Positions 1 through 13,276 of a stretch of 64,000 bases of DNA are shown here, one piece after another. Source of the stretch: a virus (taxonomy: Duplodnaviria > Heunggongvirae > Uroviricota > Caudoviricetes). Made by a program: the position numbers and the translations under genes. How positions within the stretch are numbered: the first letter of the stretch is position 1; each line of letters starts with the position of its first letter. Location: IMG/VR virus record IMGVR_UViG_3300045836_000008; one strand, 5' to 3'. The notes beneath the pieces are model-generated. The model did no database searches, had not been told where the DNA came from, and saw only the letters and a program-made list of their open reading frames with translations.

Positions 1-844
1 CTCGGAATTCGGTACACCGCAATCGTACTTCGATGCGTTCGGCATCGATACGTCCCGCATCCTTCACGTGCCGATCACGGACATGGAAATGTTCAAGTTC
101 GACGTGATGAACTACTTCGATCCGAAGAACAAAGACGGCATCAAGCGCGGCGACAAGGTACTGATTTCCATCGACTCGCTTGGCAACTTGGCATCGCGTA
201 AGGAAGTCGAAGACGCGGTGAACGAGAAGTCCGTTGCGGACATGACCCGCGCGAAGCAAGCCAAGTCGATCTTCCGCATGATTACCCCGCACCTTCGCAT
301 GAAGGACATCCCGCTGGTCGCGATTCAGCACACGTACCAGACCCAAGAGATGTATTCGAAGACGGTGGTTTCTGGCGGCACTGGCGGCATCTACGCCGCT
401 GACACGATCTTCATCATTGGTCGTCAGCAAGACGCAGAAGGCGAAGGCGCTAAGAAGGTTCTGAACGGCTACGACTTCGTGATTAACGTCGAGAAGTCGC
501 GCTACGTCAAAGAGAAGTCCAAGATTCCGGTCACGATCAGCTTCAGCGGCGGTTTGTCGAAGTGGTCTGCCCTGTTCGATTGGGCGCTCGATGGCGGGTT
601 CATCACCAAGGCCAAGCAGTCGGGTCGATACAACCACGTGGACATCGAAACCGGCGAAATCGTTGGTGACGTGTTCACCAAGAAGGAAACGAATAACGCT
701 GACTTCTGGTTGCCGATCCTGACCAACAAGAAGTTCCAAGAGTACGTCGAGAACACGTACAAGCTTGGTGAAGCGAAGATGTTGACTGACGAAGAAATCG
801 CTGACATCTACGAAGACCTTGAAGAAGTGGAAGTACCCGAATGA
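1..844 (+). CDS. uvsX: RecA-family recombinase UvsX, C-terminal portion (5' end outside window)
   Basis: Open frame from the window edge to the stop at 844. Near-collinear similarity to the C-terminal half of T4 UvsX (SLGNLASRKE..DMTRAKQAKS..AIQHTYQTQEMYSKTV..GGTGGIYAADT.FIIG...NVEKSRYVKEKSK). Synteny uvsX-small gene-gp41 matches T4. Confidence 0.85.
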   Translation, partial: SEFGTPQSYFDAFGIDTSRILHVPITDMEMFKFDVMNYFDPKNKDGIKRGDKVLISIDSLGNLASRKEVEDAVNEKSVADMTRAKQAKSIFRMITPHLRMKDIPLVAIQHTYQTQEMYSKTVVSGGTGGIYAADTIFIIGRQQDAEGEGAKKVLNGYDFVINVEKSRYVKEKSKIPVTISFSGGLSKWSALFDWALDGGFITKAKQSGRYNHVDIETGEIVGDVFTKKETNNADFWLPILTNKKFQEYVENTYKLGEAKMLTDEEIADIYEDLEEVEVPE

Positions 845-1137
845 GTAAGACGCTACCGCGCTATGCGCTGATTGAGTTGGACGGCGAAGAGTCGTGGTGC
901 GTCAGAATCGGTTCCGGTGATTACGCTGATGTGGTGTACAAGTACAACCATGTCCGCGTAGTCGAACCGGATTCAGATGACGGCTATGCCACTCTGAAGT
1001 ACAACTATGAAGTTCTGTACCACGCAGAACTACCCGAAGAGAAGTTTGCAAAGAACCCCGCGTTCGAAAACTTGATCGGGGACATTCTATACGAATTGAT
1101 TATGTCCTTTGAAGAGAAGCAAGACGATCAACAGTAA
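841..1137 (+). CDS. hypothetical acidic protein occupying the T4 gene-40 position between uvsX and the helicase
   Basis: ATG overlaps the uvsX stop (ATGA) and the stop lies 3 nt before the helicase start. No recognisable motif. Confidence 0.5.
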   Translation: MSKTLPRYALIELDGEESWCVRIGSGDYADVVYKYNHVRVVEPDSDDGYATLKYNYEVLYHAELPEEKFAKNPAFENLIGDILYELIMSFEEKQDDQQ

Positions 1138-1140
1138 TAC

Positions 1141-2553
1141 ATGGAACGCATAGAGAAGACTATCCTGCAAAGTCTGATCTACAATGAAGGGTACATGCGC
1201 AAGGTGTACCCTTTCTTGAAGGCTGAATATTTCACCGATCAGATTGATGCGCAGATGTTCAAAACGATTGCCGGGTTCATCAACACGTACAACGCGTGTC
1301 CGAGCAAAGAAGCAATCGAGATTTCGCTACAGAACGACAAGACAGTAGGAGAAGACAGCTACGAACAGTGCATCGAAGAACTGCGTGAATATTCGGCATC
1401 CGAATCAGTCGATCAGTTCTTGATTGACGAGACGGAGAAGTTCTGTAAAGACAAGGCCGTGTTCAATGCCATCACACGATCCATCAAGATCATGGACGGC
1501 AAGGACAAGGAAATCGGACAGGACGGCATCCCGCAGCTTCTACAAGATGCCTTGGCTGTCGCGTTCAATACGAACGTGGGCCACGATTACTTCGAAGATG
1601 CAGAACGACGTTTCGAGTTCTACAACAAGGAAGAAGAACGGATTCCGTTCCACCTTGAACTGTTGAACAAGGTCACGAAGGGTGGACCGCCGAAGAAAAC
1701 CCTGACGTGTGTTCTCGCGCCGACCGGTGCAGGTAAGTCGCTGTTCATGACTGATTGGGCTTCGTACCTTGTCAGCATCGGCTACAACGTCCTGTACATC
1801 ACGGCGGAAATGGCAGAAGAGCGCATCGCAGAACGTAACGATGCGAACCTGCTAGATGTGCCCCTTGACCAACTGAAGAAGATGGACAAGGACGCGTTCC
1901 TTGGACGCATGGGTAAGATTCGTGCGAAGACCCAAGGCCGGATGTTCATCAAAGAGTATCCGACATCGAGCGCACACGTAGGCCACTTCAAGGCGCTGTT
2001 GAACGAACTGAAGGTCAAGCAGAAGTTCGTCCCCGACATCATCTTCGTGGACTACATCAACATCTGTCTGTCGCAACGGTACAAGGCTGGCGGCAATGCC
2101 AATAGCTACACCATCGTCAAGGCAACAGCAGAAGAACTGCGCGGTCTGGCAGTTGAATACAATGTCCCGGTCGTCACGGCCACGCAGGTAAATCGCGATG
2201 GTATGGACAACAGCGACATTGACATGACAAACACATCCGAATCTATGGGCTTGCCGATGTCCCTTGACATCTTCTTCGCACTGATCCCGACTGAAGAGTT
2301 GGAAGCGATGAACCAGATCATGATTAAGCAGTTGAAGAACCGCTTCGGTGACATCAACTACTACAAGCGGTTTGTCGTTGGCATCGACCGATCAAAGATG
2401 CGTCTGTACGATGTCGAGACGAACGCACAAGAGAACGTAGGCAAGGACGTTGGCGAGAAGAAGGGCTACGAGTCCGACACCTTCAAGCAAGCCGCAGAGA
2501 AGGTCGCAGCCAAGCCGAAACCCGGATTCGATTTCGCTGGAATCAAATTCTGA
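1141..2553 (+). CDS. 41: replicative DNA helicase, DnaB family (T4 gp41-like)
   Basis: 470 aa, the same size as T4 gp41. Walker A APTGAGKS, RecA-fold helicase motifs (VDYINI, TATQVNRDG), N-terminal DnaB-like domain. Located downstream of uvsX as in T4. Confidence 0.9.
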   Translation: MERIEKTILQSLIYNEGYMRKVYPFLKAEYFTDQIDAQMFKTIAGFINTYNACPSKEAIEISLQNDKTVGEDSYEQCIEELREYSASESVDQFLIDETEKFCKDKAVFNAITRSIKIMDGKDKEIGQDGIPQLLQDALAVAFNTNVGHDYFEDAERRFEFYNKEEERIPFHLELLNKVTKGGPPKKTLTCVLAPTGAGKSLFMTDWASYLVSIGYNVLYITAEMAEERIAERNDANLLDVPLDQLKKMDKDAFLGRMGKIRAKTQGRMFIKEYPTSSAHVGHFKALLNELKVKQKFVPDIIFVDYINICLSQRYKAGGNANSYTIVKATAEELRGLAVEYNVPVVTATQVNRDGMDNSDIDMTNTSESMGLPMSLDIFFALIPTEELEAMNQIMIKQLKNRFGDINYYKRFVVGIDRSKMRLYDVETNAQENVGKDVGEKKGYESDTFKQAAEKVAAKPKPGFDFAGIKF

Positions 2554-3074
2554 TGCCGAAAGCAAGAGAACTGCCGTCACAAGCAGTTCTTCAGACGATG
2601 TTCCATTACGACCGCGCGACCGGCGAACTGTTCGCCAAGGTTGACGGTCATCTGGAACCGCTGAAGATCAAGGCTGACCGTGACGGCCACACAAGCTTCA
2701 CCCACAACGGTCATTACTGGTCCCTGAAACGCACCATAGCCGCCCTGTTGGGTCTGCCGGTCACGACCGATACACACGTGGCCCTTATCAACGGGAACGC
2801 CTTAGACGCCCGCTATTCGAATCTACAGGTGCTTACGCCTGAAGAGAACGCGGCGATGAAGAAGCGCAACCCGAACGTGGAATATGTCGAACCCGGCATC
2901 ATCTACAGCTACATCATCGACAAGTTCATGGTGCGTACCGGGTATCGAGACGTGAAGCGTCGTCGTGACCGGCACTATGCCACGCTGGAAGAAGCCCGCG
3001 CGCACCGCGATGCACTGATTGCAACCATGCGCAAAGAAATTCAGGCACGCCCGGAACGGTTCGATTTCGAGTGA
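2553..3074 (+). CDS. HNH homing endonuclease with C-terminal AP2 DNA-binding domain
   Basis: HNH_3-type motif (HVALINGNALDARYSNLQVLTPEEN) plus an AP2-like YATLEEARAHRDAL segment. Start overlaps the helicase stop (TGATG). Confidence 0.7.
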   Translation: MPKARELPSQAVLQTMFHYDRATGELFAKVDGHLEPLKIKADRDGHTSFTHNGHYWSLKRTIAALLGLPVTTDTHVALINGNALDARYSNLQVLTPEENAAMKKRNPNVEYVEPGIIYSYIIDKFMVRTGYRDVKRRRDRHYATLEEARAHRDALIATMRKEIQARPERFDFE

Positions 3075-3116
3075 TCGCCCTAAATATTTCCGTCAACAAC
3101 TGCGGGAGTTGCGGAA

Positions 3117-3791
3117 ATGTTTCTGGCACACAAGATCAACAAGCGTGTCGCGCAACTACATCATGCGTTGTCAACCCGGTCAGTGATCGGGCACGACGAA
3201 CTTCAGAAGGTCTTCTACGAAGCGGTCAAACCACTCGGTGTCCGAGTTGTCATGATCCGTGACGATCTACCGAAGAATGCTTTTGCGATTGGTGGTTTTT
3301 ATGAACCGTGGCGAAAGCGCCAACCCATCTGTATCGAATTGTTCGTCAGCAAGAAGACCGATTCACTTCGGATTTCAAAGAAGTGGCTGTCGAACACTCT
3401 GTTCACGTTGTACCAAACTCTGTCGCATGAACTGCTGCACAAACAGCAGTACAGCCATCGCAGACCGGATTCAGTCGTTTGGCTGATCCCGTTGGCCGGT
3501 GGTGTCGAGATGGACGAACAGCAAGCCTATCTCGCAGAAATAGACGAGATTGACGCCTACGCGCATGACATTGCGCTGGAACTGGTCTTCTACCATCCCG
3601 ACGATTGCTTCGAAGTCCTACGGACAATGCAATCGCACAAGATTTCGTCATGGCAGCTTTACGTGGATGCCTTCGACGGCACTGACTGGTCCGAGATTCA
3701 TAACCGGTTGCTGAAGAAAGTGTTCGAACATCTAACCCGTATCCGGGAAAATGGAGAACAATTCTCATGTACGAAAATATCTTTTCGGTGA
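3117..3791 (+). CDS. hypothetical protein with HExxH motif (possible SprT-like zinc metallopeptidase fold)
   Basis: SHELLHKQQ HExxH motif. Otherwise unrecognised. Confidence 0.45.
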   Translation: MFLAHKINKRVAQLHHALSTRSVIGHDELQKVFYEAVKPLGVRVVMIRDDLPKNAFAIGGFYEPWRKRQPICIELFVSKKTDSLRISKKWLSNTLFTLYQTLSHELLHKQQYSHRRPDSVVWLIPLAGGVEMDEQQAYLAEIDEIDAYAHDIALELVFYHPDDCFEVLRTMQSHKISSWQLYVDAFDGTDWSEIHNRLLKKVFEHLTRIRENGEQFSCTKISFR

Positions 3792-3943
3792 TGGACCTGA
3801 TACAATACGCACTCGTTGCCGCGTGTGGGTTTGCGTTGTATCGCGAAGGCTTCAAACGCGGCGCACGTCAAGTCCTTGAAAAACTGGCAGAGATGGGTGT
3901 TGTGCAGTTGCAACAACCTGAACAAGACGAAGAAAACAGTTGA
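3767..3943 (+). CDS. small hypothetical membrane protein (58 aa, one predicted TM)
   Basis: ATG-initiated ORF overlapping the end of the previous gene with a hydrophobic LIQYALVAACGFALY segment. Below the 60-aa ORF-track cutoff. Confidence 0.3.
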   Translation: MYENIFSVMDLIQYALVAACGFALYREGFKRGARQVLEKLAEMGVVQLQQPEQDEENS

Positions 3944-3968
3944 CCAACCTTGGGAATGACTGTATAAT
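3940..3968 (+). promoter_or_regulatory. sigma70-type promoter (TTGACC-17-TATAAT) with CCTTGGGAA half-site in the spacer, driving the tRNA
   Basis: TTGACC aaccttgggaatgactg TATAAT read directly. Member of the window-wide promoter family. Confidence 0.6.
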
Positions 3969-4039
3969 GTGGTTTCACAGTTGATGATGTCGATCAACAC
4001 CGGTTCTTGTAGATTTGTCCGGGCAAAACAATCTCCGAT

Positions 4040-4112
4040 GGGTCGGTAGTTTATCTGGCTAAAACGGCGGACTCCAAACCCGCAGTGCAAGGTTCAAGTC
4101 CTTGTCGGCCCG
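4040..4112 (+). tRNA. tRNA, anticodon CCA (tRNA-Trp)
   Basis: Manual cloverleaf: acceptor GGGTCGG/TCGGCCC (two G-U pairs), U8, D-stem GTTT/AAAC with GG in the D-loop, anticodon loop CTCCAAA (U33, CCA, A37), T-arm CAAGG-TTCAAGT-CCTTG, discriminator G, encoded CCA at 4113-4115. One A-C mismatch at 31-39. Confidence 0.6.
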
Positions 4113-4167
4113 CCACATACTTGACCGCCAAGAGCGCGGAACTAAAACCTGAAGAGAAGTAGAGAAG

Positions 4168-4425
4168 ATGACTAAACAAGTTGCACCCCTGTCGCAAAAG
4201 GCACAAATCGAAAAGCTGCTTCGCCGTGGTCGCGTCCTGACCGCAGCGCAACTGCGTGAACTCGGTGTCACCAAGCCGTCCGCGCGCATCTGCAATCTGC
4301 GCGACGATGGTCTGCGCATCGTCAGCACGAAGAACAAGCAAGGCACCCCGGCATGGAAGCTGGACAAGGCGTTCTACAACGGCCTTGATGCTCGATCAAC
4401 ACCGGCATACGCATTCAGCGTCTAA
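4168..4425 (+). CDS. small DNA-binding protein with helix-turn-helix / winged-helix character
   Basis: 85 aa, basic, with a LTAAQLRELGVTKPSARICNLRDDGL HTH-like segment. Immediately downstream of the tRNA. Confidence 0.5.
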   Translation: MTKQVAPLSQKAQIEKLLRRGRVLTAAQLRELGVTKPSARICNLRDDGLRIVSTKNKQGTPAWKLDKAFYNGLDARSTPAYAFSV

Positions 4426-4447
4426 GCGCCACAACGACCAAACATCC

Positions 4448-4463
4448 GTGGGCTTCGGCCCAC
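4448..4463 (+). other. GC-rich stem-loop with UUCG tetraloop (GUGGGC-UUCG-GCCCAC), no U-tract
   Basis: Read directly. Lies between the HTH gene and the next ORF. Confidence 0.4.
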
Positions 4464-4488
4464 TTGAGAACTCTCTAAGACATCCTAC

Positions 4489-4977
4489 ATGCACGCAGAC
4501 AACCTGAAAGCCCTTCTTTTCGCACAACTTGACGCTTGCGAAGACGCCACAACCCTTCGCACGCTGGTGAAGATCGCTGACGAAGTGATCGAGCATCAAG
4601 GCAACGAACTCAACGCTGCACACGAAGTGTTCGAAATCCTGACGGGCCAACTTGCCGAACTCGGTGATGACGCCGACCGCTACCAACTGCTGAAGCGCAT
4701 CATCGGTGACATGCTGGTTGTCGCGGCATATACCGGCGCACAGGCCGGTCACAAGGCCGTCGAAGCCTTCAAGAAGTTCGATGTCGCTTTGCTCGATTCG
4801 ACGCTGGACAACCTGATCGAAGCTGGTCTTCTCGATGAACTCGAAGAGCGCGAGACGGCCCAAGCAGCGGCAGATGCCGGTGTCGAACTCGATGATGAAC
4901 CGGTCGGTTATGCCGCAGCCGGTCCCGCATACCGCGACGAACTTCTGCCGCAAGGCGTGCTGTCGGACGAGTATTGA
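4489..4977 (+). CDS. hypothetical acidic protein
   Basis: 162-aa ORF with coding-like composition. No motif recognised. Confidence 0.5.
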   Translation: MHADNLKALLFAQLDACEDATTLRTLVKIADEVIEHQGNELNAAHEVFEILTGQLAELGDDADRYQLLKRIIGDMLVVAAYTGAQAGHKAVEAFKKFDVALLDSTLDNLIEAGLLDELEERETAQAAADAGVELDDEPVGYAAAGPAYRDELLPQGVLSDEY

Positions 4978-5099
4978 ATCACGCGTGACGTGTAGGTAGG
5001 GAAAGCAAACGGAGCATGGGAAGCGATGGTCTTGAAAACCTAGCGGATACCGCACCGGCCTACACAAACAAGCCCAACGTTGGACATCTGAAAAAGGTG

Positions 5100-5129
5100 T
5101 TGACAACGTTGGGCTTTTTCGTTTATGAT
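5100..5129 (+). promoter_or_regulatory. promoter of the conserved family (TTGACA-acgttgggctttttcgt-TTATGAT, leader TTCACTCAC...GGAG)
   Basis: Read directly. Conserved leader and GGAG precede the ATG at 5163. Confidence 0.5.
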
Positions 5130-5162
5130 TCACTCACTGGCACACACCACGGAGCGCAAGAC

Positions 5163-6344
5163 ATGAAAATCGCTGAATTCAACGCCGAAAAGTTCCTGAA
5201 GAAGATCGCGACGTTCAACCGTAAGGCAAAGAAGCTGCAACTGCCGGAAGTCAAGGCCGTCAAGATCGGTTCGGAACTCGTTGAACAGAAGCACAAGGAC
5301 GATGAAGGTAACGTCGAGACGTACTTCATCCAAGTCGATGAATACGACATTCAGGGCGAAATCCCGCGCGTCGGTGGTTGGGCGATTCACTCGAAGGTGC
5401 AGCCCGCCGAACAAGAAGCCGGTAACTTCGTGTACACGAACAAGGGCTTCGAACCGCGTGAATCGCTGCGCACGGTCGGTATGGTCTGCCAGCACTGCAA
5501 CATGGCCCGCCGTCGCGGCACGGTGTACCTGCTTCAGAACAGCGAGACGGGCGAAGAAAAGCTGGTCGGCAAGTCATGCCTGAAGGACTTCTTGCCGGAA
5601 CTGAATATCCTTGAAGTGCTGGCGTATCTGGAAGGCATCGAAAAGCTGTCGTCGGAAGGCAACGTGTACTGCGACGAAGACGGCGAACCGATTGACGGTG
5701 GCTGGCCGCGTAGCGCATGGGTGTACCCGACTTGGGACTTGGTTGCAGAATCGCTGGTCCTGATCCGCAAGTGGGGTTTTGTGTCGAAGGCCGCAGCGCG
5801 TGACAGCTTCGACACCACGGCCACGGCTGACCTGCTTGGCCGTACCGGAAAGGCCCGCAAAGAACTGTACAGCGACGCAGAAATCGAAGCTGTACGCGAT
5901 CAGGTCGAACAGTGCATCGAGTGGATCACGACGCAGGACGCCAAGTCGGACTTCTTCTACAATCTGCAACTGGCATTCAAGCAGAAGGGCGCTGGTTACA
6001 AGATGTTCTCTTTTGTTGCAGCCGGTGTGTTCCAGTGGATCAAGCATCTCGGTGAACTGGAAGCGAAGAAGAACACGAACAAGCGCAACGAGTTCGTAGG
6101 CGAGATTGGCGAGCGCCGGGTGTTCGCAGATGTCAAGATCGTCCGCGAATACGTCAGCGAAGGCCAGTGGGGTTCGACCTTCATCACGACGCTCGAAATG
6201 GTTGACGGGCAATCGCTGGTGTGGTTTGCTTCGAAGCGCGTAGGTGAGATTGGCGAGACGATGACGATCAAGGCAACGATCAAGGAACACAAGATGTACA
6301 ACGATCTTCACCAGACGGTCATCACGCGCGGCGCAAAGATTTGA
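5163..6344 (+). CDS. hypothetical protein (393 aa)
   Basis: Start chosen at the ATG after the family promoter/leader and GGAG. The ORF track extends upstream to 5016. Confidence 0.55.
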   Translation: MKIAEFNAEKFLKKIATFNRKAKKLQLPEVKAVKIGSELVEQKHKDDEGNVETYFIQVDEYDIQGEIPRVGGWAIHSKVQPAEQEAGNFVYTNKGFEPRESLRTVGMVCQHCNMARRRGTVYLLQNSETGEEKLVGKSCLKDFLPELNILEVLAYLEGIEKLSSEGNVYCDEDGEPIDGGWPRSAWVYPTWDLVAESLVLIRKWGFVSKAAARDSFDTTATADLLGRTGKARKELYSDAEIEAVRDQVEQCIEWITTQDAKSDFFYNLQLAFKQKGAGYKMFSFVAAGVFQWIKHLGELEAKKNTNKRNEFVGEIGERRVFADVKIVREYVSEGQWGSTFITTLEMVDGQSLVWFASKRVGEIGETMTIKATIKEHKMYNDLHQTVITRGAKI

Positions 6345-6365
6345 CGGGGGAGAAGCAGGGAGTTT

Positions 6366-6391
6366 AAGGGGACTTCGGTCCCCTTCTTTTT
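6366..6391 (+). terminator. rho-independent terminator, UUCG tetraloop (AAGGGGAC-UUCG-GUCCCCUU + CUUUUUG)
   Basis: Perfect 8-bp stem, UUCG loop, U-tract. Confidence 0.8.
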
Positions 6392-6410
6392 GACCTATGA
6401 CGGAGAAAAC

Positions 6411-6827
6411 ATGATCGTAAAAGCAGTCGAACGCGCGTATCGGGTGAAGGCCGAACGTAATTGGGACTACGTATATTGGGCCGTCGATCTTCATGGCGTG
6501 TGCCTGAAGTCGAACTACAACGCTGGCGGGTATCAGTGGATCACCGAAGACGCACCGCGTGTACTGAAGCTGCTGTCAGATCGACCCGAGACACGGATCA
6601 TTCTGTGGTCGTCGGTGTATCGAGAAGAGAAGTCCGACATCATCGGCTTCTTCCGCAAGCACGGCATTGAAGTGTGGGATTTCAACGGCAATCTGAGCGA
6701 GCCGAACACCATCGTGTCGTGCTTTGAAGAGAAGTTCTACTTCTCGATCCTGCTTGACGACAAGGCCGGGTTCGATCCTGAGACGGACTGGCGAGCCATC
6801 GAACAATTTGTTACATCGATGGACTGA
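6411..6827 (+). CDS. hypothetical protein
   Basis: ATG 5 nt after GGAG (gacGGAGaaaacATG). The ORF track extends to a TTG at 6390. Confidence 0.5.
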   Translation: MIVKAVERAYRVKAERNWDYVYWAVDLHGVCLKSNYNAGGYQWITEDAPRVLKLLSDRPETRIILWSSVYREEKSDIIGFFRKHGIEVWDFNGNLSEPNTIVSCFEEKFYFSILLDDKAGFDPETDWRAIEQFVTSMD

Positions 6828-7064
6828 TAGGAAGGACCGGGAACGCTAAATAGTAGTGTTCCCGTTGTTGACTCTTTGAGTACGGGACCGGGTTGTAGAT
6901 AGTTGAACATCATGTTCCGCGCTTCGCGCGTCGTGCTTCGCACGAAACATCATTCATGGACTTGTTACCAATGACCATGAACCCCGAAAAACCATTATAC
7001 CAACGTCCCAAAGTTGTGTCAAGCTAAATAAATTGACGCAACCCAAACACAAGGATTCACAACA

Positions 7065-7586
7065 ATGTCAAATTGGTCCCTAAAGAACCCGCCTACGTAC
7101 CGCCCGGATGCTGTTGCTGGTCCTGAAGGCTGGAAAGACCCGGTAACGGGCGAAGTGCTGGTCGCAATCGGCGGTCTGACGACGAAGAAGGCACCGCTGG
7201 CAAGCTGGCCTACCTTCACCCTTGCCGTCCCCGCAAACGGCACGTATCCGGCTGGTACGACCCTGACGTTCACCGTCACGGCATCGTCAGTCGTCGCAGT
7301 CGCAGGTACGCCGTCAATCGACGTGACGTTCGGCACGACTGTCCGACAGGCGCAATTCACTGGCATCGATTCAACGAAGAAGATTCTGACGTTCGCCTAC
7401 ACGACCGTCGCGGGCGATGACGCACCGTCTGGCATCGTGGTCAACAACACCATCGACCTGAACACGGTTGGCAAGGGCAAGTCCCGCGTGGTGGACGAAC
7501 TGACGCTGAACAGCGGCGAGACGATCCCGGCTGCTTCGCTGACGTTCACGGTCCCGGCCACGACTGGCATCATCACTACGGGCTAA
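7065..7586 (+). CDS. hypothetical Thr/Val-rich beta-rich protein (possible Ig-like/structural decoration domain)
   Basis: TLTFTVTASSVVAVAGTPSIDVTFGTTV-type beta-strand repeats. Confidence 0.5.
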   Translation: MSNWSLKNPPTYRPDAVAGPEGWKDPVTGEVLVAIGGLTTKKAPLASWPTFTLAVPANGTYPAGTTLTFTVTASSVVAVAGTPSIDVTFGTTVRQAQFTGIDSTKKILTFAYTTVAGDDAPSGIVVNNTIDLNTVGKGKSRVVDELTLNSGETIPAASLTFTVPATTGIITTG

Positions 7587-7593
7587 TTGAACG

Positions 7594-8028
7594 ATGGATC
7601 AGAAAGTTAGCGGGCTTCCACAAGCCACGTCAGTTCTGGCCGCTGACAACCTGATCCTGAACCAGAATGGCATTACGAAGCGTATTGCCATCTCTGACTT
7701 CTTTGGATCGGGTTTGCCGGTCACGATCAATGCCGCTGGTCAGATCGTCTTGGGTTCAACGCCCGAAGTCGTGAATACCGGCGCAGTATCACTGACGGTT
7801 CTCCGAACGCACATCAATCTGTCGGGTTCGCAATCCATCACCATTCCGAACGGCGTAGACGGCCAGATGAAGGTCATCATCGCGGCGGTCGGCACTGGTG
7901 GTGTCACAACCCTGACCGGTTCTTTGTACGCAAACACAATTCAGTTCTCCAAACTTGGCGATACCGCATTGCTGCTATTCACTGGCGGCAAATGGGCGCA
8001 AGTCGGCGGAACTGCTGTTTCACTGTAA
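7594..8028 (+). CDS. hypothetical Thr/Gly/Val-rich beta-rich protein
   Basis: 144-aa ORF with composition similar to the preceding gene. Confidence 0.5.
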   Translation: MDQKVSGLPQATSVLAADNLILNQNGITKRIAISDFFGSGLPVTINAAGQIVLGSTPEVVNTGAVSLTVLRTHINLSGSQSITIPNGVDGQMKVIIAAVGTGGVTTLTGSLYANTIQFSKLGDTALLLFTGGKWAQVGGTAVSL

Positions 8029-8031
8029 AAG

Positions 8032-8436
8032 ATGATTAAAGTCGATTTGTCCGAAGACAACTTCGAGTATTTCGCGATTCGGCACTACGATGACCCGAAC
8101 TGTCAAGGGCTGCATGAATTCAAGGAAGACATGCAGCGGTTCAAGTACCTGAATCGACTCCTGAACAAGTACGAAGAGTGCGGCGAGATGCGTACCAACC
8201 TTGTGTTGAACCATATCGTCGTTCTCTACAACCTATTCAACGATGCGGCGACAAACATGCTGTTCTATCGCGTTGCCGAGAAACACTGGCCGATCTTGGT
8301 CCCGTTCCTGATCTATATCAACCGGTTGCCGAACGACATCCACCTGTCGGCCACGCGGACCATCAAGGACAGCGACATTCAGATCGACATGAATGTTGTC
8401 TCGATTCTGCGCGAATTCAACCGACAAGGTTGCTAA
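8032..8436 (+). CDS. hypothetical protein
   Basis: 134-aa ORF with lower GC than its neighbours. Confidence 0.5.
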   Translation: MIKVDLSEDNFEYFAIRHYDDPNCQGLHEFKEDMQRFKYLNRLLNKYEECGEMRTNLVLNHIVVLYNLFNDAATNMLFYRVAEKHWPILVPFLIYINRLPNDIHLSATRTIKDSDIQIDMNVVSILREFNRQGC

Positions 8437-8444
8437 GGAAACCT

Positions 8445-8621
8445 ATGGAATACGACATCAAGACGTTCCGCCAGTTCTGTGAAGATGGCGGCGCAGCCGG
8501 TGCAGCAAGTGGTGTAGCGGCAAACAGTACGGGTACGGCAGTGGCCGGAACTGGTGATGATAAATCTACTGTAGTGGTTAAGAAGAAACCAACAATCATC
8601 ACAAGGACCAAACCCGAATGA
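8445..8621 (+). CDS. small hypothetical protein (58 aa)
   Basis: ATG-initiated, in frame with the long track ORF 8178-8621. Stop overlaps the next start (GAATGA). Confidence 0.35.
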   Translation: MEYDIKTFRQFCEDGGAAGAASGVAANSTGTAVAGTGDDKSTVVVKKKPTIITRTKPE

Positions 8622-8890
8622 AACTGTTCCACAAAATCAAACAGTGGTTCAAGCGCTCACATCATGACGCAGCTACAGTAGCCGAACTGAAGGACATCGC
8701 GAAGTATGAGACAGAAGCAAGTCTCGAAGTCCTTCCGGTGATCCCCGCGCCAAAGCCGAAGAGCAACCGCAAACCGGGACCGAAGAAGCAAGTCCCCGGA
8801 CAGCCCGCAGTGAAAACGGGTGCGCCGAAGAAAACCGGTAGCACATCGAAGAAGCCGCGTCAGTACAACAAACCAAAACCGAAGGTCTGA
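8618..8890 (+). CDS. hypothetical Lys/Pro-rich basic protein
   Basis: PKPKSNRKPGPKKQVPGQPAVKTGAPKKTGSTSKKPRQYNKPKPKV tail. Translationally coupled to the preceding ORF. Confidence 0.5.
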   Translation: MKLFHKIKQWFKRSHHDAATVAELKDIAKYETEASLEVLPVIPAPKPKSNRKPGPKKQVPGQPAVKTGAPKKTGSTSKKPRQYNKPKPKV

Positions 8891-8892
8891 TT

Positions 8893-9399
8893 ATGCCCGA
8901 AGCCGAAGACGTAACAATCGCATTGCTGCAACGGGACTATGAACAGACGCAGCAGATCGTGTCCAAGATGGACACGGCAATCGAGAAGCTAACTGATCTT
9001 GGCGTTGACATGAAGCAGATGTTGGCGCTGCATGAACAACGAATTAACCGGCTTGAACAGATCGACAACGAAATTCATGGTCTTGTTGAAAAACGTCGAA
9101 CAGAACTACAGACGGACATCAAGGACGTGGATGCGAAATTGGCGAACACTATCAAGGAAATTACGGGCGACCTAGCCAACGTCGAGACACGCATCATGAA
9201 GGCCATCGCTGACGTGAAGGAAGACATCAAGTCCGACATCAAGACCGACAAGGAAGAGAAGGCCGAGTCCGACAAGGAACTGGTCAAGCGTGTCGAAAAG
9301 CTAGAGAAGTGGCGCTGGATGATGCTAGGCGGCGGTTTCGTCGTGGGCTTCATCATCGAGAAGGTTCTGCCCCTGCTTCTACCACACGTAGGTGGTTGA
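8893..9399 (+). CDS. hypothetical coiled-coil protein with C-terminal transmembrane segment
   Basis: Heptad-rich middle region and C-terminal WRWMMLGGGFVVGFIIEKVLPLLL segment. Confidence 0.5.
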   Translation: MPEAEDVTIALLQRDYEQTQQIVSKMDTAIEKLTDLGVDMKQMLALHEQRINRLEQIDNEIHGLVEKRRTELQTDIKDVDAKLANTIKEITGDLANVETRIMKAIADVKEDIKSDIKTDKEEKAESDKELVKRVEKLEKWRWMMLGGGFVVGFIIEKVLPLLLPHVGG

Positions 9400-9486
9400 C
9401 AAAACTCCCAGACTTGGGTATAAAGACGGCTTCGGTCGTCTTTTTGCATTTTGGGGCTTGCAAAATTCCCAAGCTTGTGAGATAAT
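9396..9486 (+). promoter_or_regulatory. two tandem family promoters flanking a UUCG-loop terminator
   Basis: TTGACA aaactcccagacttggg TATAAA, then terminator AGACGGC-UUCG-GUCGUCU + UUUUGCAUUUU (about 9424-9446), then TTGCAA aattcccaagcttgtga GATAAT. Precedes the primase. Confidence 0.6.
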
Positions 9487-9523
9487 ACGGTTTCGTTAGT
9501 CAAGCAACACCACGGAGTACCAC

Positions 9524-10576
9524 TTGCTGTACATTGACGTGAAATACGTCAGCTTCCTTGCATCACGGCTGCAACAGTTCAAGAAGAAGGACGCAAGTCT
9601 GTGGAACTGTCGCTGCCCCATCTGTCTCGATTCCGCAACGAACAAGACCAAGGCGCGTGGCTACATCTACATGCGCGAACAGCGTCTTTACTACATGTGC
9701 CACAACTGCGGCACATCGATGACGTTCGGAAGCTTCCTAGAGTCGGTCGATCCCGTTCTGTACGGCGAATACCGGCTGGAAGTCTATCGCGAGAAGAACA
9801 CCACGCAGATCGACCGGCGAAAGAAAGAACCGGAAGAGAAGGAAGTTGACGCGAGCCTGTTTAAGACCGATACAGCGTCCCGCCTGAAGGCGAAGGTGTC
9901 AATCCCCCAACCGTCCCTTCTGGACGGCCTGATGGACCGTTTAGACACGTTGCCGCCCGATCATGAAGCGGTGCGCTATGTGACTGGCCGGATGATCCCC
10001 AAGGACCAATTCCACAAGATGTACTTCATTCCGAACATGCTGGACATCGTTCAGCTATCGGATAAGTACGAAGGGCGCATCAAGACGCAAGAACCGCGCA
10101 TCGTCTTGCCCTTCTTCGATCTGAAGGGACAACTGACCGGCGTGACCTGTCGGGCCATACGCGGCGAATCGCTGCGCTACGTGGTTGTGAAGGTCAAGGA
10201 AGATGCGCCGCTGATCTTCGGCATCAACGACATCGACCGATCCAAGAAGGTGTACGTCTGCGAAGGCCCAATCGACAGCTTGTTCCTACCTAACGCAATC
10301 GCTGTCGGCGGCACATCGATGGGGAAGATCAACTTCCTTGGCCTGAAGGACACGACCATCATCTTCGACAATCAGCCGCGAAACAAGGATGTCTGCCGCA
10401 TCATGGAACGGGCCATCGACCACGGTTCAAACGTGGTCATCTGGAACAGCCGCATCGGCCCCAAGGACATCAACGCGATGCACGAAGCTGGCATCGACTA
10501 CCTGAAGGAAATCGAATCGAGTACGTATTCTGGACTCGAAGCGAAACACAAATTCATCAACTGGAAGAAATGTTGA
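9524..10576 (+). CDS. 61: DNA primase (T4 gp61-like) with N-terminal zinc ribbon
   Basis: 350 aa against T4 gp61's 342. CRCPICLDS...CHNCG zinc finger, TOPRIM-like acidic motifs (CEGPIDSLF, IIFDNQ). Apparent TTG start 9 nt after GGAG; an alternative GTG lies at 9539. Confidence 0.85.
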   Translation: MLYIDVKYVSFLASRLQQFKKKDASLWNCRCPICLDSATNKTKARGYIYMREQRLYYMCHNCGTSMTFGSFLESVDPVLYGEYRLEVYREKNTTQIDRRKKEPEEKEVDASLFKTDTASRLKAKVSIPQPSLLDGLMDRLDTLPPDHEAVRYVTGRMIPKDQFHKMYFIPNMLDIVQLSDKYEGRIKTQEPRIVLPFFDLKGQLTGVTCRAIRGESLRYVVVKVKEDAPLIFGINDIDRSKKVYVCEGPIDSLFLPNAIAVGGTSMGKINFLGLKDTTIIFDNQPRNKDVCRIMERAIDHGSNVVIWNSRIGPKDINAMHEAGIDYLKEIESSTYSGLEAKHKFINWKKC

Positions 10577-10740
10577 AGTACAAAACCATTAGCGTCTACA
10601 ACGACACTGACACGTTCGATTGGAAGATCGAACAGCATGTCGATGAAGGCTGGTACGTGAACGGAAATATCGTCGTGGCTATCGACTGTGACGGCAACGT
10701 TCTGTACTCGCTGTTGATGTCAAAGAACGTGGCCGTATAA
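10570..10740 (+). CDS. small hypothetical protein (56 aa)
   Basis: ATG overlapping the primase stop (ATGTTGA). Below the ORF-track cutoff. Confidence 0.3.
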   Translation: MLKYKTISVYNDTDTFDWKIEQHVDEGWYVNGNIVVAIDCDGNVLYSLLMSKNVAV

Positions 10741-10742
10741 CC

Positions 10743-10991
10743 ATGCAAGCACGAATCATCAAACACTTCCCGCGTGACGAAGACACCGGGAAACTTCTGA
10801 GTGATGGCGACTACTATTACGTCACCGTCGAAATCCACGGCCACAAGGTCAAGAACTACGGCGACTCGTACCACGAAAAGGGTTTCGAACGTGCGCAAGC
10901 CTTCATCGAAGGTTACGCCCATGCCATCGGAATGACCAAGGGCGTCAGCATCACGTACAGTGAAGCCGAAGTCGAGTATGGCAACGCGTAG
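10743..10991 (+). CDS. hypothetical protein
   Basis: 82-aa ORF. Confidence 0.45.
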   Translation: MQARIIKHFPRDEDTGKLLSDGDYYYVTVEIHGHKVKNYGDSYHEKGFERAQAFIEGYAHAIGMTKGVSITYSEAEVEYGNA

Positions 10992-11316
10992 CCTACTCAA
11001 ACAGGCAATCGCATCGATGGCCGAATCGAACATCTTGGCATCGTGTTCGTACCTGTCAGACCCTTTGATTGCCGACGCGTACCGAAACAACGACAGATTT
11101 CAGGAACATGTGAAGTGGGACATGGCGCACCGTCTCACGGAACTGATCTTCGAACGCATGGATTACCGCGTCGATCACGACCATCCTTCAGGCGGAACAT
11201 GCTACACGGCATCAATCCGCGCATTCAATCAAAAACAGTGGGAAGACCTTGAACGTCAGCTAGACGACAAAGCCGCCCACAATCAAATCGTAGTCCTGAA
11301 CACGCATGACCATTGA
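10978..11316 (+). CDS. hypothetical protein
   Basis: ATG at 10978 in frame with track ORF 10960-11316 (the track start is GTG). Confidence 0.45.
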   Translation: MATRSLLKQAIASMAESNILASCSYLSDPLIADAYRNNDRFQEHVKWDMAHRLTELIFERMDYRVDHDHPSGGTCYTASIRAFNQKQWEDLERQLDDKAAHNQIVVLNTHDH

Positions 11317-12139
11317 AGCAAAAGTCGTTGCCGATTCCGTATGGGTCGATAACAAAAACAAGCCGCACCGAATCACCACACTGCAACTGAAGTACCCGCG
11401 ATTCATTCACGCGGAATTCATGACGCACCGCGTGTTCTCTCGCAATGCTTCGTCGTCCCGCGCGATTCCGGTGAAGAAGATTCTGTCGGCCATTTGGAAA
11501 GACCCGGCGATGCCGATCCATTGGGGCGCGAATCAAGCCGGTATGCAAGCGAAGGCCGAAGTATCGGACTTCAAACAATACGTCGCAGAAAAGCTGTGGC
11601 GTGGTTGCGGCAAGCTGGCCTGTACGTTCGCCTACGGCATGACCCTGATCGGTCTACACAAGCAGGTAGCGAACCGCATCACTGAACCGTGGCAACACAT
11701 CTCGGTCATCGTCACGGCGACCGAATGGAAGAACTTCTTCGACCTTCGCGATCACCCGGACGCACAACCCGAGATTCGCGAACTCGCGACGCAGATCAAG
11801 ATCGCGATGGAAGAGTCCGAACCCGAAGAACTGAAGAAGGGTGAATGGCATCTTCCGTATGTGTCCGAAGCCGAACGCACGATGTATTCGGACGAAGACC
11901 TGAAGAAGATTTCGGCGGCACGCTGCGCACGCGTCTCGTACCTGACGCATGATGGTCAGAAGCCGAATCCTGAAGCCGACATCAAGCTGCACGACCGTCT
12001 GGTTGGCTCGATCCCGATCCACGCATCACCAGTCGAACACCAAGCAACCCCGTCGATGACGAACAACTGGTACAAGAACTTCCGTGGTTGGATTCAGTAC
12101 CGCGTCGAAGTCGAAAAGATGAACTTGAAAACACGATGA
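11306..12139 (+). CDS. thyX: FAD-dependent thymidylate synthase ThyX
   Basis: ThyX signature RHRxxSxxxxSxR (MTHRVFSRNASSSRAIP), 277 aa. Confidence 0.9.
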   Translation: MTIEAKVVADSVWVDNKNKPHRITTLQLKYPRFIHAEFMTHRVFSRNASSSRAIPVKKILSAIWKDPAMPIHWGANQAGMQAKAEVSDFKQYVAEKLWRGCGKLACTFAYGMTLIGLHKQVANRITEPWQHISVIVTATEWKNFFDLRDHPDAQPEIRELATQIKIAMEESEPEELKKGEWHLPYVSEAERTMYSDEDLKKISAARCARVSYLTHDGQKPNPEADIKLHDRLVGSIPIHASPVEHQATPSMTNNWYKNFRGWIQYRVEVEKMNLKTR

Positions 12140-12489
12140 TAGACAAAGAAGAAATATTGAACCGTGCCGTCGAAGAAGCACGCGCGGCACTCGCGAAAGC
12201 AGAAGCAGAACTCGAAGCATTCCTTCGTAGCCCGGAACGATTCCGCTACGAAGACCTTGACGAAGCATATGAACTCGAATGGGACTTGCTGGAACGCGCT
12301 GGCGAAGATTGTGAAGGGTCTTACAACGTAGGCCACGACGAGTACCGTCAAGAGTTCTACATCGGTGACAAGAAGTACGTCGCGATCCTGTTCAAGATCG
12401 AATACAACCGTCACGACAAGCGCTACTACTACGTTGATGGTCACAAGTTCCGCATCGAAGACGAAGATGGCAACGTACAGGCAACGTAA
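12136..12489 (+). CDS. hypothetical protein
   Basis: ATG overlaps the thyX stop (ATGA). 117 aa. Confidence 0.45.
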   Translation: MIDKEEILNRAVEEARAALAKAEAELEAFLRSPERFRYEDLDEAYELEWDLLERAGEDCEGSYNVGHDEYRQEFYIGDKKYVAILFKIEYNRHDKRYYYVDGHKFRIEDEDGNVQAT

Positions 12490-12751
12490 CGTACCGACCA
12501 TCGAAGCATTCCAACTTCCCGACCCGGACGATGATGACGGCATTGCAGCCTTCCACGACTGGTCGGAGAAGTGGAACTTCGAGTGGGAATCAGATCGTGA
12601 CTGCACGATCAGCTTCAGGAAGAAGCAAACGATGGCCGCTGAAGAGTGGGTCAACGTGAAGGCCGGTGACTGGATCATCTTCAGTCCGTTTGACTTCTAC
12701 ACAATGGATGACAAGTCCTTCCGTCAATACTACGAACAAATCGAAGAGTAA
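12467..12751 (+). CDS. hypothetical protein
   Basis: ATG at 12467. The upstream part of the track ORF is out-of-frame overlap with the previous gene. Confidence 0.45.
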   Translation: MATYRQRNVPTIEAFQLPDPDDDDGIAAFHDWSEKWNFEWESDRDCTISFRKKQTMAAEEWVNVKAGDWIIFSPFDFYTMDDKSFRQYYEQIEE

Positions 12752-12818
12752 TGGGTTTCCGCTACTACACCAAGAAGCTTGACATCTTCGAAGCAACCTA
12801 CGACATCGTTTAAAGCAA

Positions 12819-13262: not shown

Positions 13263-13276
13263 ATAGTTCTCCCAAT

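What the first reader, a model, noticed from the sequence alone, without database searches (positions are those of the whole stretch)
3940..4115. Promoter-driven tRNA (anticodon CCA, Trp) embedded among early genes
A 73-nt tRNA folds by hand with canonical invariants and an encoded 3' CCA, directly downstream of a family-type promoter. The anticodon stem has an A31-C39 mismatch, so it may be a slightly unusual tRNA, and a scanner might assign a different identity. T4-like phages carry tRNA clusters to match their codon bias, but only one is visible here. A single tRNA-Trp(CCA) could alternatively support UGA/UGG decoding or serve as a target or repair substrate for an anticodon-nuclease defence, in line with the repair-like 2H enzyme elsewhere.
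Basis: seen in the sequence. Interest (0 to 1): 0.55.

Follow-up and report, generated by a model that had tools for sequence, protein, structure and literature searches.

The report
Relocated phage tRNA-Trp gene cassette
This is a genuine, evidently working tryptophan tRNA gene of a T4-like phage, one of about a dozen tRNAs that the phage carries; it is ordinary in kind, but it sits apart from the others in a swappable early-promoter slot and keeps an unpaired base pair in its anticodon stem whose effect has not been tested.

Summary
ARAGORN and Rfam both call a tRNA-Trp(CCA) at 4040-4115 (+). It has an encoded CCA, discriminator G73 and a real A31·C39 mismatch. It lies about 70 nt downstream of a near-consensus sigma-70-type promoter (3940-3968) that belongs to a promoter family enriched in the window.

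The gene is functional. Two alleles in phage genomes that are at least 99% identical differ at 10 of 76 positions, with three double compensatory stem changes and no disruptive change.

It is not the phage's only tRNA. The same genome has an 11-tRNA cluster 11-17 kb upstream of the window, and that cluster lacks Trp. In most relatives the homologous tRNA-Trp sits inside the cluster, and the slot downstream of gp41 holds a 105-140 nt tRNA-Leu-like RNA instead. The gene is therefore a relocated cassette.

A31·C39 is kept in 5 of 8 clade tRNA-Trp genes while neighbouring pairs co-vary. It also occurs in at least 96 diverse viral tRNA-Trp genes. Such "bottom-unpinned" stems are rare (0.7%) and unstudied in bacteria.

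UGA recoding is not supported: TGA is the main stop codon. The "2H enzyme" is Acb1 (anti-CBASS), not a tRNA repair enzyme. The counter-nuclease role is plausible but untested. Verdict: a new member of a known kind, of modest interest.

The parts
3767..3943 (+). Upstream 58-aa ORF of unknown function. Its TGA stop (3941-3943) overlaps the -35 box.
   Evidence: ORF list. Called as a 58-aa gene in the public contigs. No Pfam or PHROG hit. Sequence read.
3940..3968 (+). Sigma-70-type early promoter TTGACC-17 nt-TATAAT with the spacer motif TTGGGAAT. It is conserved in the relatives L002-L005.
   Evidence: 11 of 12 consensus positions. Family of 16 against 1.9 expected. Conserved in alignment A1. 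Identical in both alleles.
3969..4039 (+). Transcribed leader of about 65-70 nt with two hairpins (3980-3998 GTTGAT..ATCAAC; 4000-4003/4019-4022 CCGG..CCGG). It is homologous to the leader of the slot RNA in relatives L002, L004 and L005. Allele B has a ~22-nt leader in its place. Presumably removed by RNase P (inferred).
   Evidence: Alignments. Consensus fold with one compensatory pair, C-G to A-U. No Rfam match.
4040..4115 (+). tRNA-Trp gene: anticodon CCA at 4074-4076, A31·C39 at 4071/4079, U11-A24, A9, G73, encoded CCA at 4113-4115.
   Evidence: ARAGORN. Rfam 50.9 bits. Allele comparison with compensatory changes. Clade homologs.
3969..4121 (+). Polymorphic cassette (leader plus tRNA plus short trailer). 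It is replaced by a ~66%-identical allele in strains that are at least 99% identical on both flanks. The break-points are at the end of the -10 box and at 4121/4122.
   Evidence: blastn of the window against L072, L075 and L078. Alignment A3.
4116..4167 (+). Spacer without a terminator. The conserved 3' flank (GACCGCCAAGAGCG...) and the ribosome-binding region of the next gene lie here, so the tRNA is probably co-transcribed with that gene (inferred).
   Evidence: No + strand terminator-like site. Flank conserved in relatives and in allele B.
4168..4425 (+). Downstream 85-aa winged-helix protein (HTH_39). It is conserved in relatives and lies in the same transcription unit.
   Evidence: Pfam PF14090, E = 1.2e-08. 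Precomputed hit. Homologous in L002-L005.

Best explanation
The feature is a functional elongator tRNA-Trp(CCA) gene of a ~172.5-kb T4-like phage. It is transcribed early by host sigma-70 RNA polymerase from the promoter at 3940-3968, as the first element of a transcript that continues into the HTH_39 gene. Host RNase P and 3' processing enzymes release it. Host TrpRS charges it through G73 and the CCA anticodon. It decodes UGG, adding to or replacing host tRNA-Trp during infection.

It belongs to the phage's complement of about 12 tRNAs but lies about 16 kb from the rest. In this lineage the clade's cluster tRNA-Trp is missing from its ancestral place (between the Asn-like element and the 81-aa ORF). 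It occupies instead an early-promoter 'RNA slot' downstream of gp41, which in relatives expresses a long tRNA-Leu-like RNA. The slot is an actively recombining cassette, most simply through promoter-flank homologous recombination of the PeSL type known in T4-like phages.

Shown: the gene, the promoter match, selection for structure, the relocation, the allele polymorphism, and the recurrence of A31·C39.

Inferred: transcription, processing, charging, UGG decoding, the recombination mechanism, and the benefit to the phage.

The A31·C39 non-pair is a retained, virus-recurrent variant of the anticodon stem. Its effect is unknown.
For: Identity of the gene:
- Two independent tRNA detectors agree.
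- All stems are standard apart from 31-39, and G73, the CCA anticodon and an A36-A37-A38 loop are present.

Selection for structure:
- Alleles A and B differ at 10 of 76 nt. There are three double compensatory pairs (7-66, 50-64, 52-62), one G-C to U·G change, three loop changes and no disruptive change.
- The clade homologs are 75-82% identical, with co-varying acceptor, T and anticodon stems.

Promoter and transcription unit:
- The promoter matches 11 of 12 positions and its family is enriched.
- It is conserved in relatives.
- No terminator lies before the next gene.

Relocation:
- The window phage's own cluster holds Thr, Ser, Met, Ile | 314-aa ORF | Pro, His, Glu, Gln, Arg, Leu, Tyr and no Trp.
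- Only 24 nt lie where relatives have Trp.
- Relatives carry Trp inside the cluster and a different RNA in the slot.

Cassette exchange:
- The allele break-points sit exactly at the end of the -10 box and at 4121/4122, in genomes at least 99% identical.
- PeSL-mediated shuffling is described in PMC4122927.
Against: - No expression, processing or aminoacylation data exist.
- The host is unknown, so neither tRNA supply nor tRNA depletion can be assessed.
- Trp has a single codon and TGG use is unremarkable at 11.6 per 1000 codons, so classical codon-bias compensation cannot explain selection for this tRNA in particular.
- The tRNA promoter has no upstream stem-loop, so it is not a full PeSL motif.
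- The direction and mechanism of the relocation are inferred from comparison only.
- Allele B's flanks resemble cluster flanks only weakly.
Confidence: 0.85

Rival explanations
1. Counter-defence tRNA. The phage tRNA-Trp is a nuclease-insensitive substitute for host tRNA-Trp when a host anticodon nuclease (for example a VapC/PIN-type toxin) or another tRNase depletes it. The A31/C39 change next to the 3' side of the loop would prevent recognition or cleavage. This role is additional to plain UGG decoding, not exclusive of it.
For: - tRNA-Trp(CCA)-specific nucleases exist. M. tuberculosis VapC25, 29, 33, 37 and 39 cut it at A36|A37, A37|A38 (the main site) and A38|A39 (PMC5175351), adjacent to position 39.
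- The general principle that phage tRNAs escape tRNA-targeting defences is published (PMC10264068; also PMC11464382 and PMC11555353, listed).
- The tRNA is made from an early promoter.
- The genome invests in RNA repair and anti-defence: Rnl1, Rnl2 and an AAA_33 kinase, Acb1 and an Acb2/Tad1-like gene beside the cluster.
- Bottom-unpaired stems look several times commoner in viral tRNA-Trp genes than in bacterial ones: 6 of 106 against 0.69% (PMC13092985).
Against: - The host and its nucleases are unknown.
- The anticodon loop itself (CUCCAAA) is identical to the bacterial norm.
- The clade also contains members with C31-G39 and A31-U39, so A·C is not obligatory.
- The viral-versus-bacterial comparison uses a small sample and different methods.
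- The mycobacterial VapC precedent comes from an unrelated host group.
Confidence: 0.25
2. Near-cognate UGA reader. The 4-bp anticodon stem (unpaired at the bottom) together with U11-A24 lets this CCA tRNA read UGA. This would give programmed or global UGA read-through during infection.
For: [quoted passage not shown]
- A top-unpinned E. coli variant reads through UGA (PMC13092985, abstract; details).
- G24A and A9C are the classical read-through mutations. All eight clade tRNA-Trp genes have A24, and the only member with a fully paired stem has C9.
- Seven of the eight clade members have a 4-bp stem.
Against: - The stem here is unpaired at the bottom, not the top. That class was explicitly not tested.
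- U11-A24 is common in ordinary bacterial tRNA-Trp: 2,414 of the 3,438 4-bp-stem genes carry A9C and/or G24A.
- TGA ends 51 of 89 window genes.
- The median open frame after TGA is 20 codons, against 22 after TAA and 27 after TAG, and long in-frame continuations are not enriched after TGA.
- Fakih et al. found lower UGA use where 4-bp-stem tRNA-Trp is the only form, which is the opposite of what is seen here.
Confidence: 0.1
3. Decaying or non-functional tRNA pseudogene. It would have been carried along with a recombined cassette, and A31·C39 would be damage.
For: - There is a mismatch in the anticodon stem.
- The Rfam score of 50.9 bits is below that of the best tRNAs of the same phage, which reach 66.7 bits.
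- The gene lies outside the normal cluster.
Against: - The differences between the alleles are compensatory or in loops, and none is disruptive.
- The mismatch is kept while adjacent pairs co-vary across the clade.
- The same mismatch is found in 75 unique viral tRNA-Trp sequences with more than 25 different stems.
- All identity elements and the T-loop and D-loop invariants are intact.
- A strong conserved promoter lies upstream.
- The score lies inside the range of the phage's other tRNAs, 35-67 bits.
Confidence: 0.03

Closest known systems
tRNA genes of T4-like phages (T4 tRNA region: 8 tRNAs plus rnaC and rnaD)
   Same: Both are T4-like myoviruses carrying host-type cloverleaf tRNAs that are transcribed with neighbouring genes and need host processing. 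A tRNA cluster with interspersed small ORFs exists in the same genome.
   Different: - T4 has no tRNA-Trp.
- Here the Trp gene is detached from the cluster and has its own early promoter and a structured leader.
- It is polymorphic between near-identical strains.
Counter-defence phage tRNAs (T5 tRNA-Lys against PARIS; T5 tRNA-Tyr against retron Eco7/PtuAB; the hypothesis of van den Berg et al. 2023)
   Same: Both are phage-encoded isoacceptors that differ from the usual bacterial sequence in the anticodon arm. The phage here also has other anti-defence genes.
   Different: - No targeting nuclease or host is known here.
- The difference lies in the last stem pair rather than in the loop.
- Nothing has been tested.
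[quoted passage not shown] 2023, as cited in PMC12153298; Fakih et al. 2026)
   Same: Both are CCA-anticodon tRNA-Trp with only four paired anticodon-stem positions, kept under purifying selection.
   Different: - The defining feature of the Blastocrithidia-like class is unpairing at the top (27-43) with a 7-nt loop and no A9C or G24A.
- Here the bottom pair (31-39) is open and A24 is present.
- The genome uses TGA as its main stop.
Hirsh UGA suppressor (E. coli tRNA-Trp G24A)
   Same: Both have a U11-A24 pair in the D stem.
   Different: U11-A24 is the natural state of many bacterial tRNA-Trp genes, so it is not diagnostic (B. subtilis from my own knowledge). No suppression evidence exists here.
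PeSL (promoter-early stem-loop) cassette shuffling in T4-like phages (PMC2839356, PMC4122927)
   Same: In both, variable cargo is bounded by a conserved early promoter, and near-identical phages differ by replacement of the segment that starts at the promoter. A terminator-promoter composite exists at 6366-6395.
   Different: - The tRNA promoter has no adjacent upstream stem-loop.
- The cargo is an RNA gene rather than an ORF.
- The recombination itself was not observed.

Membership tests
tRNA (Rfam RF00005), isotype Trp | Cloverleaf with 7/4/5/5-bp stems that scores above the curated covariance-model threshold | tested here: met
   50.9 bits against a gathering score of 29, full-length model match. 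ARAGORN call. Twenty of 21 stem pairs are standard.
tRNA (Rfam RF00005), isotype Trp | Anticodon CCA in a 7-nt loop with U33 and A37 | tested here: met
   Loop CUCCAAA at 4072-4078, anticodon at 4074-4076.
tRNA (Rfam RF00005), isotype Trp | Bacterial TrpRS identity elements: discriminator G73 plus the anticodon (established knowledge). A1-U72 is a minor element. | tested here: inconclusive
   G73 and CCA are present. The first pair is G1-C72, not A1-U72. Charging itself cannot be tested with these tools.
tRNA (Rfam RF00005), isotype Trp | Evolutionary conservation of the structure (compensatory substitutions) | tested here: met
   Three double compensatory pairs between alleles A and B. Co-variation across eight clade genes.
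[quoted passage not shown] 2026 definition) | Anticodon stem unpaired at the top (27-43), with a 7-nt loop | tested here: not met
   G27-C43 is paired. The open pair is 31-39.
[quoted passage not shown] 2026 definition) | Lacks A9C and G24A | tested here: not met
   A24 (U11-A24) is present. Position 9 is A.
[quoted passage not shown] 2026 definition) | Associated with UGA read as Trp, or with reduced UGA stop use | tested here: not met
   TGA ends 51 of 89 genes. There is no excess of open frame after TGA.
Counter-defence phage tRNA | The host has a nuclease that depletes the cognate host tRNA on infection | not testable with these tools
   The host is unknown. Only a literature precedent exists for tRNA-Trp nucleases.
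Counter-defence phage tRNA | The phage tRNA differs from the host tRNA at the nuclease's recognition or cleavage site | tested here: inconclusive
   It differs from the common bacterial U31-A39 at the pair that borders the VapC37 cleavage sites. The loop is unchanged and the host sequence is unknown.
PeSL-type mobile cassette | Variable segment bounded by a conserved early-promoter motif, with replacement between close relatives | tested here: met
   The break-point lies at the end of the -10 box. The flanks are at least 99% identical and the insert is ~66% identical. In more distant relatives the slot holds a different RNA.
PeSL-type mobile cassette | Composite stem-loop (terminator) immediately upstream of the promoter | tested here: not met
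   No stem-loop lies upstream of 3940. The upstream ORF's stop codon overlaps the -35 box.

The most novel reading that the evidence does not exclude
The A31·C39 ('bottom-unpinned') anticodon stem is a selected, virus-typical adaptation of tRNA-Trp(CCA). It would either make the tRNA invisible to host tRNA-Trp anticodon nucleases or, together with A24, allow near-cognate reading of UGA. Phages move this specialised tRNA as an early-expressed cassette. If true, this would define the function of a tRNA class that Fakih et al. (2026) found in bacteria but left unstudied, and would show that it is enriched in viruses.
Probability: 0.2. Interest if true: 0.7.

Novelty: new member of a known kind. 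Interest (0 to 1): 0.3.

Why it matters
Phage tRNA genes are common, so the gene itself changes little.

Three points make it a useful experimental handle.

1. Trp has one codon, so codon-bias compensation cannot explain why this tRNA is kept. That sharpens the question of why phages keep particular tRNAs.

2. Natural alleles and clade variants (A·C, U·U, A-U, C-G at 31-39; A or C at position 9) form a ready-made mutational series. It can test whether bottom-unpaired anticodon stems affect nuclease sensitivity or UGA read-through, a class left open in the 2026 survey of 4-bp stems.

3. The slot shows RNA genes being exchanged behind a fixed early promoter in near-identical genomes. This extends cassette shuffling in T4-like phages from ORFs to tRNA and tRNA-like RNA genes.

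Tried and rejected
- No close relative in GenBank phages. megablast of 3000-6000 found nothing. blastn of the tRNA region found only weak tRNA-Trp matches in Xanthomonas phage RTH11 and Erwinia phage Caitlin. Their 31-39 pairs are G·U and A-U.

- Intron-bearing tRNA as a reading of the relatives' slot RNA. ARAGORN with introns allowed gives mutually inconsistent anticodons (Thr-agt, Thr-cgt, His-atg). Rejected.

- tmRNA. None found.

- UGA recoding. Rejected on stop-codon usage and on frames after the stop.

- 2H enzyme as tRNA repair. Rejected, because it is Acb1.

- A31·C39 arm as the normal arm of some bacterial lineage. The exact 18-mer occurs in only 47 stretches from 185,579 species. Seven of these are tRNA-Trp genes, and five of the seven lie in dense tRNA arrays.

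- Ratio of A·C to canonical forms in IMG/VR. I replaced it with a sample that is neutral for positions 31 and 39. That sample had to be reconstructed partly by assumption.

- Reciprocal swap between the slot RNA and a cluster element. The long tRNA-like element in the cluster (L372 2104-2226) is not homologous to the relatives' slot RNA.

- Cluster-flank footprint in allele B. The similarity is weak, so it is left as suggestive.

- A metagenome scan with the cluster ORF did not return the window phage's contig.

I reached the region through permitted homology-search handles instead.

- The rest of the genome, about 90 kb outside the window and the fetched flanks, could not be scanned. The total tRNA count is therefore a minimum.

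Full report
**1. The observation**

ARAGORN finds exactly one tRNA in the 64-kb window: tRNA-Trp with anticodon CCA at 4040-4115 on the + strand. Rfam's tRNA covariance model matches 4040-4112 end to end at 50.9 bits, against a gathering score of 29, with E = 5.5e-08.

Read directly, the gene has:
- a 7-bp acceptor stem (GGGUCGG/UCGGCCC, with two G·U pairs);
- a 4-bp D stem with U11-A24;
- an anticodon stem G27-C43, C28-G42, G29-C41, G30-C40 followed by an A31·C39 non-pair;
- the loop CUCCAAA;
- a 5-bp T stem with a UUCAAGU loop;
- discriminator G73 and an encoded CCA.

The promoter TTGACC-17 nt-TATAAT at 3940-3968 matches 11 of 12 consensus positions. The pattern occurs 16 times in the window with up to 2 mismatches, against 1.9 expected, and 0 of 100 shuffles reach 16. 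Most copies share a spacer motif, ATTCCCA or its complement TGGGAAT. So the 'family-type promoter' is real.

No + strand terminator-like site lies between the tRNA and the next ORF at 4168-4425. That ORF is a winged-helix HTH_39 protein.

**2. What genome this is**

The window encodes UvsX, a gp41-type helicase, an HNH endonuclease, ribonucleotide reductase, NAMPT, a DNA ligase, a gp33-like coactivator and Acb1. GC content is 53.7%.

The helicase is at most ~54-56% identical in protein sequence to cyanomyoviruses in GenBank, and no GenBank phage is close at the DNA level. Public metagenome assemblies contain the same phage as ~172.5-173.0 kb contigs. L073 is 100% identical to window 1-14425. 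Relatives at ~70-85% nucleotide identity are ~168-177 kb contigs.

**3. The gene is under selection as a tRNA**

In strains whose flanks are at least 99% identical to the window (L072, L075, L078), the segment 3969-4121 is replaced by a ~66%-identical allele that still encodes tRNA-Trp(CCA).

The two tRNAs differ at 10 of 76 positions:
- three stem pairs changed on both sides with pairing kept (7-66 G·U to U-A; 50-64 A-U to C-G; 52-62 G-C to C-G);
- one pair changed from G-C to U·G;
- three differences lie in loops;
- none breaks a pair;
- A31·C39 is unchanged.

This pattern excludes a decaying pseudogene.

**4. It is not the phage's only tRNA; it is a relocated one**

Within 10 kb downstream of gp41, the relatives L002-L005 have no ARAGORN tRNA. 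They do share the promoter, the leader (L002, L004, L005) and the 3' flank with the window.

Between those flanks they carry a 105-140 nt RNA. It has a tRNA-Leu-like acceptor and D arm, A73 and a good T arm, but a hypervariable 42-76 nt centre. Rfam's tRNA model scores 40-42 bits for two of these RNAs. Compensatory changes are visible in the acceptor, D and T stems.

The homologous tRNA-Trp of the relatives (75-82% identical) lies in a tRNA cluster 17-19 kb upstream of gp41, typically in the order Asn-Trp-(81-aa ORF)-Phe-Ile-(314-aa ORF)-Pro....

Using permitted look-up handles, I obtained the same region of the window phage itself. L372 is the same contig as L073, and L371 is the allele-B strain. 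It has the cluster: Thr, Ser, Met, Ile | 314-aa ORF | Pro, His, Glu, Gln, Arg, Leu, Tyr. It also has an aberrant Phe-like element and an Asn-like element. There is no Trp. Only 24 nt separate the Asn-like element from the 81-aa ORF, where relatives have Trp.

So this lineage lacks Trp at its ancestral site and has it in the slot downstream of gp41, about 16 kb away, in place of the long tRNA-like RNA.

The break-points of the allele polymorphism, at the end of the -10 box and at 4121/4122, fit exchange by homologous recombination at conserved promoter and flank sequences. This has been described for PeSL motifs in T4-like phages (PMC4122927). It is an inference. The tRNA promoter lacks the upstream stem-loop of a full PeSL.

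**5. The A31·C39 non-pair**

*In the clade.* It is not private damage. Among eight distinct clade tRNA-Trp genes:
- five have A31·C39, while pairs 27-43, 28-42 and 30-40 co-vary (G-C/C-G; U-A/U-A; C-G/C-G);
- one has U31·U39;
- one has A31-U39 with the top pair open (C27·U43);
- one has a fully paired stem (C31-G39) and carries C9;
- the seven read reliably all have U11-A24 (L364's D stem was mis-anchored).

*In viruses.* A scan of IMG/VR for G30-A31-CUCCAAA-C39-C40 plus a T-loop finds 114 contigs. Of these, 96 are ARAGORN tRNA-Trp(CCA) genes. They comprise 75 unique sequences, 45 clusters at 80% identity and more than 25 different stems. Twenty-five are solitary and 48 lie in arrays of five or more tRNAs.

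*In bacteria.* The exact 18-nt arm occurs in only 47 stretches from 185,579 bacterial and archaeal species. Seven of these are tRNA-Trp genes, and five of the seven lie in dense tRNA arrays.

*Published baseline.* Fakih et al. 2026 (PMC13092985) examined 38,615 bacterial tRNA-Trp(CCA) genes. They found 3,438 with 4-bp anticodon stems, of which 3,171 are open at the top and only 267 (0.69%) open at the bottom. They did not study the bottom-open class.

*Comparison.* In a sample of 106 viral tRNA-Trp genes chosen without regard to positions 31 and 39, I find 6 (5.7%) open at the bottom and 22 open at the top. This points to a several-fold excess in viral contigs. The figure is rough: the sample is small and partly reconstructed, and the method differs from theirs.

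**6. Functional readings**

*(a) Plain UGG decoding or supply.* This is the default and is certainly compatible with the data. However, Trp has one codon and TGG use is ordinary at 11.6 per 1000 codons. Codon-bias matching therefore does not explain why Trp in particular is retained.

*(b) Counter-defence.* tRNA-Trp-specific anticodon-loop nucleases exist, cutting at 36|37, 37|38 and 38|39 (PMC5175351). Phage tRNAs that evade tRNases are documented or proposed. This genome carries Rnl1, Rnl2, a kinase, Acb1 and an Acb2/Tad1-like gene. This is circumstantial, and the host is unknown.

*(c) UGA read-through.* The analogy is with top-unpinned 4-bp stems and with G24A or A9C. Against it:
- TGA ends 51 of 89 genes;
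- open frames after TGA (median 20 codons) are no longer than after TAA (22) or TAG (27);
- long in-frame continuations are not enriched after TGA.

The 2H protein at 58008-58505 is Acb1 (PF23474, 120 bits).

**7. Comparison with what is known**

The gene is a member of the tRNA family, and all defining features that could be tested are met. It works like the tRNAs of T4-type phages.

It is not a member of the 'Blastocrithidia-like' class, because it has the wrong open pair, A24 is present, and TGA is used heavily as a stop. Membership of the counter-defence tRNA group cannot be tested here.

The long tRNA-like RNAs in the relatives' slot have a functional analogue of unknown role in T4's rnaC (139 nt, with a tRNA-type T arm, next to tRNA-Arg).

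**8. Verdict**

This is a real, functional and ordinary kind of gene. It is a new member of a known kind, with a well-documented evolutionary twist (a relocated, polymorphic cassette) and a recurrent but unexplained anticodon-stem variant. Interest is modest at 0.3.

The most novel reading still open is that the bottom-unpaired stem is a selected viral adaptation affecting nuclease sensitivity or UGA reading. I put this at about 0.2.

Noticed in passing
L002 12388-12527; L005 ~12395-12525; L004 2659-2771; L003 10621-10725 (the position equivalent to window 4040-4115): Relatives carry a 105-140 nt tRNA-like RNA behind the same promoter instead of tRNA-Trp. It has a tRNA-Leu-type D arm, A73, a good T arm and no encoded CCA. 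The acceptor, D and T stems show compensatory changes, and the centre is a hypervariable 42-76 nt. ARAGORN misses it, and Rfam tRNA scores 40-42 bits for two of them. It is analogous to T4 rnaC, and its function is unknown.
   Followed up: partly
window 3940, 6994(-), 9396, 21946, 30014, 30668, 33065, 35920, 40500, 49188 and others: A family of sigma-70-like promoters (16 against 1.9 expected) shares a spacer motif, ATTCCCA(A/G) or its complement TTGGGAAT, between the -35 and -10 boxes. This could be a binding site for a regulator or a substrate for recombination.
   Followed up: partly
window 2553-3074 (+): An HNH endonuclease ORF just downstream of gp41 is absent from relatives L002-L005. 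A different sequence replaces it in strain L072, where window 2556-3076 has no match although the flanks are 98.5-99.3% identical. This is a second polymorphic cassette, 1 kb upstream of the tRNA.
   Followed up: partly
window 3969-4039: The leader is more conserved than its surroundings in L002, L004 and L005. It has an inverted repeat GTTGAT-N7-ATCAAC at about +5 to +23 from the predicted transcription start, and a second hairpin with one compensatory pair. It could be an operator (an HTH_39 gene follows) or an RNA processing element. Allele B has a ~22-nt leader in its place.
   Followed up: partly
window 58008-58505 (+) and 57416-57883 (+): Acb1 anti-CBASS 2H phosphodiesterase (PF23474, 120 bits) lies next to a gp33-like late-transcription coactivator (PF16805).
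   Followed up: yes
L372 1-8200 (same phage, 11-17 kb upstream of the window start): The tRNA cluster holds 10-11 ARAGORN tRNAs. It also holds elements that only Rfam or the eye picks up: an aberrant Phe-like tRNA (2883-2954, 35 bits, odd T loop), an Asn(GUU)-like element (~2524-2605), and a 123-nt tRNA-Sec-like long RNA (2104-2226, 30 bits, below threshold). An Acb2/Tad1-like gene (PF24729), Rnl2, Rnl1 and an AAA_33 kinase follow downstream.
   Followed up: partly
L354, L357, L363, L364, L312, L091 (clade tRNA-Trp genes): Seven of eight distinct clade tRNA-Trp(CCA) genes have only four paired anticodon-stem positions: five A·C, one U·U, and one open at the top. The single fully paired one (L363) has C9, the other classical UGA read-through change. 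The seven read reliably all have A24 (L364's D stem was mis-anchored).
   Followed up: partly
window 6366-6395 (+) and 9422-9486 (+): Terminator-like hairpins run straight into promoter -35 boxes (AAGGGGACTTCGGTCCCCTT-CTTTTTGACC). These are PeSL-like terminator-promoter composites.
   Followed up: no
window 36497-36790 to 36794-37279; 5016-6344 to 6390-6827; 22992-23387 to 23466-23831: Three genes that end in TGA are followed in the same frame by the next gene. The number is no more than chance, given similar cases after TAA and TAG. These would be the places to look if UGA read-through were ever shown.
   Followed up: no
L031, L033, L035, L041, L042 (one Xanthobacteraceae MAG) and other alphaproteobacterial MAG loci: The 18-mer GGCGGACTCCAAACCCGC occurs on five contigs of a single MAG and in many other genomes where ARAGORN calls no tRNA. 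It may be part of a repeated element unrelated to tRNA-Trp. Unexplained.
   Followed up: no
L355/L356 (relative, 172.9-kb contigs): This relative's 13-tRNA cluster also lacks tRNA-Trp. I could not see whether it carries Trp in the slot downstream of gp41, as the window phage does.
   Followed up: no
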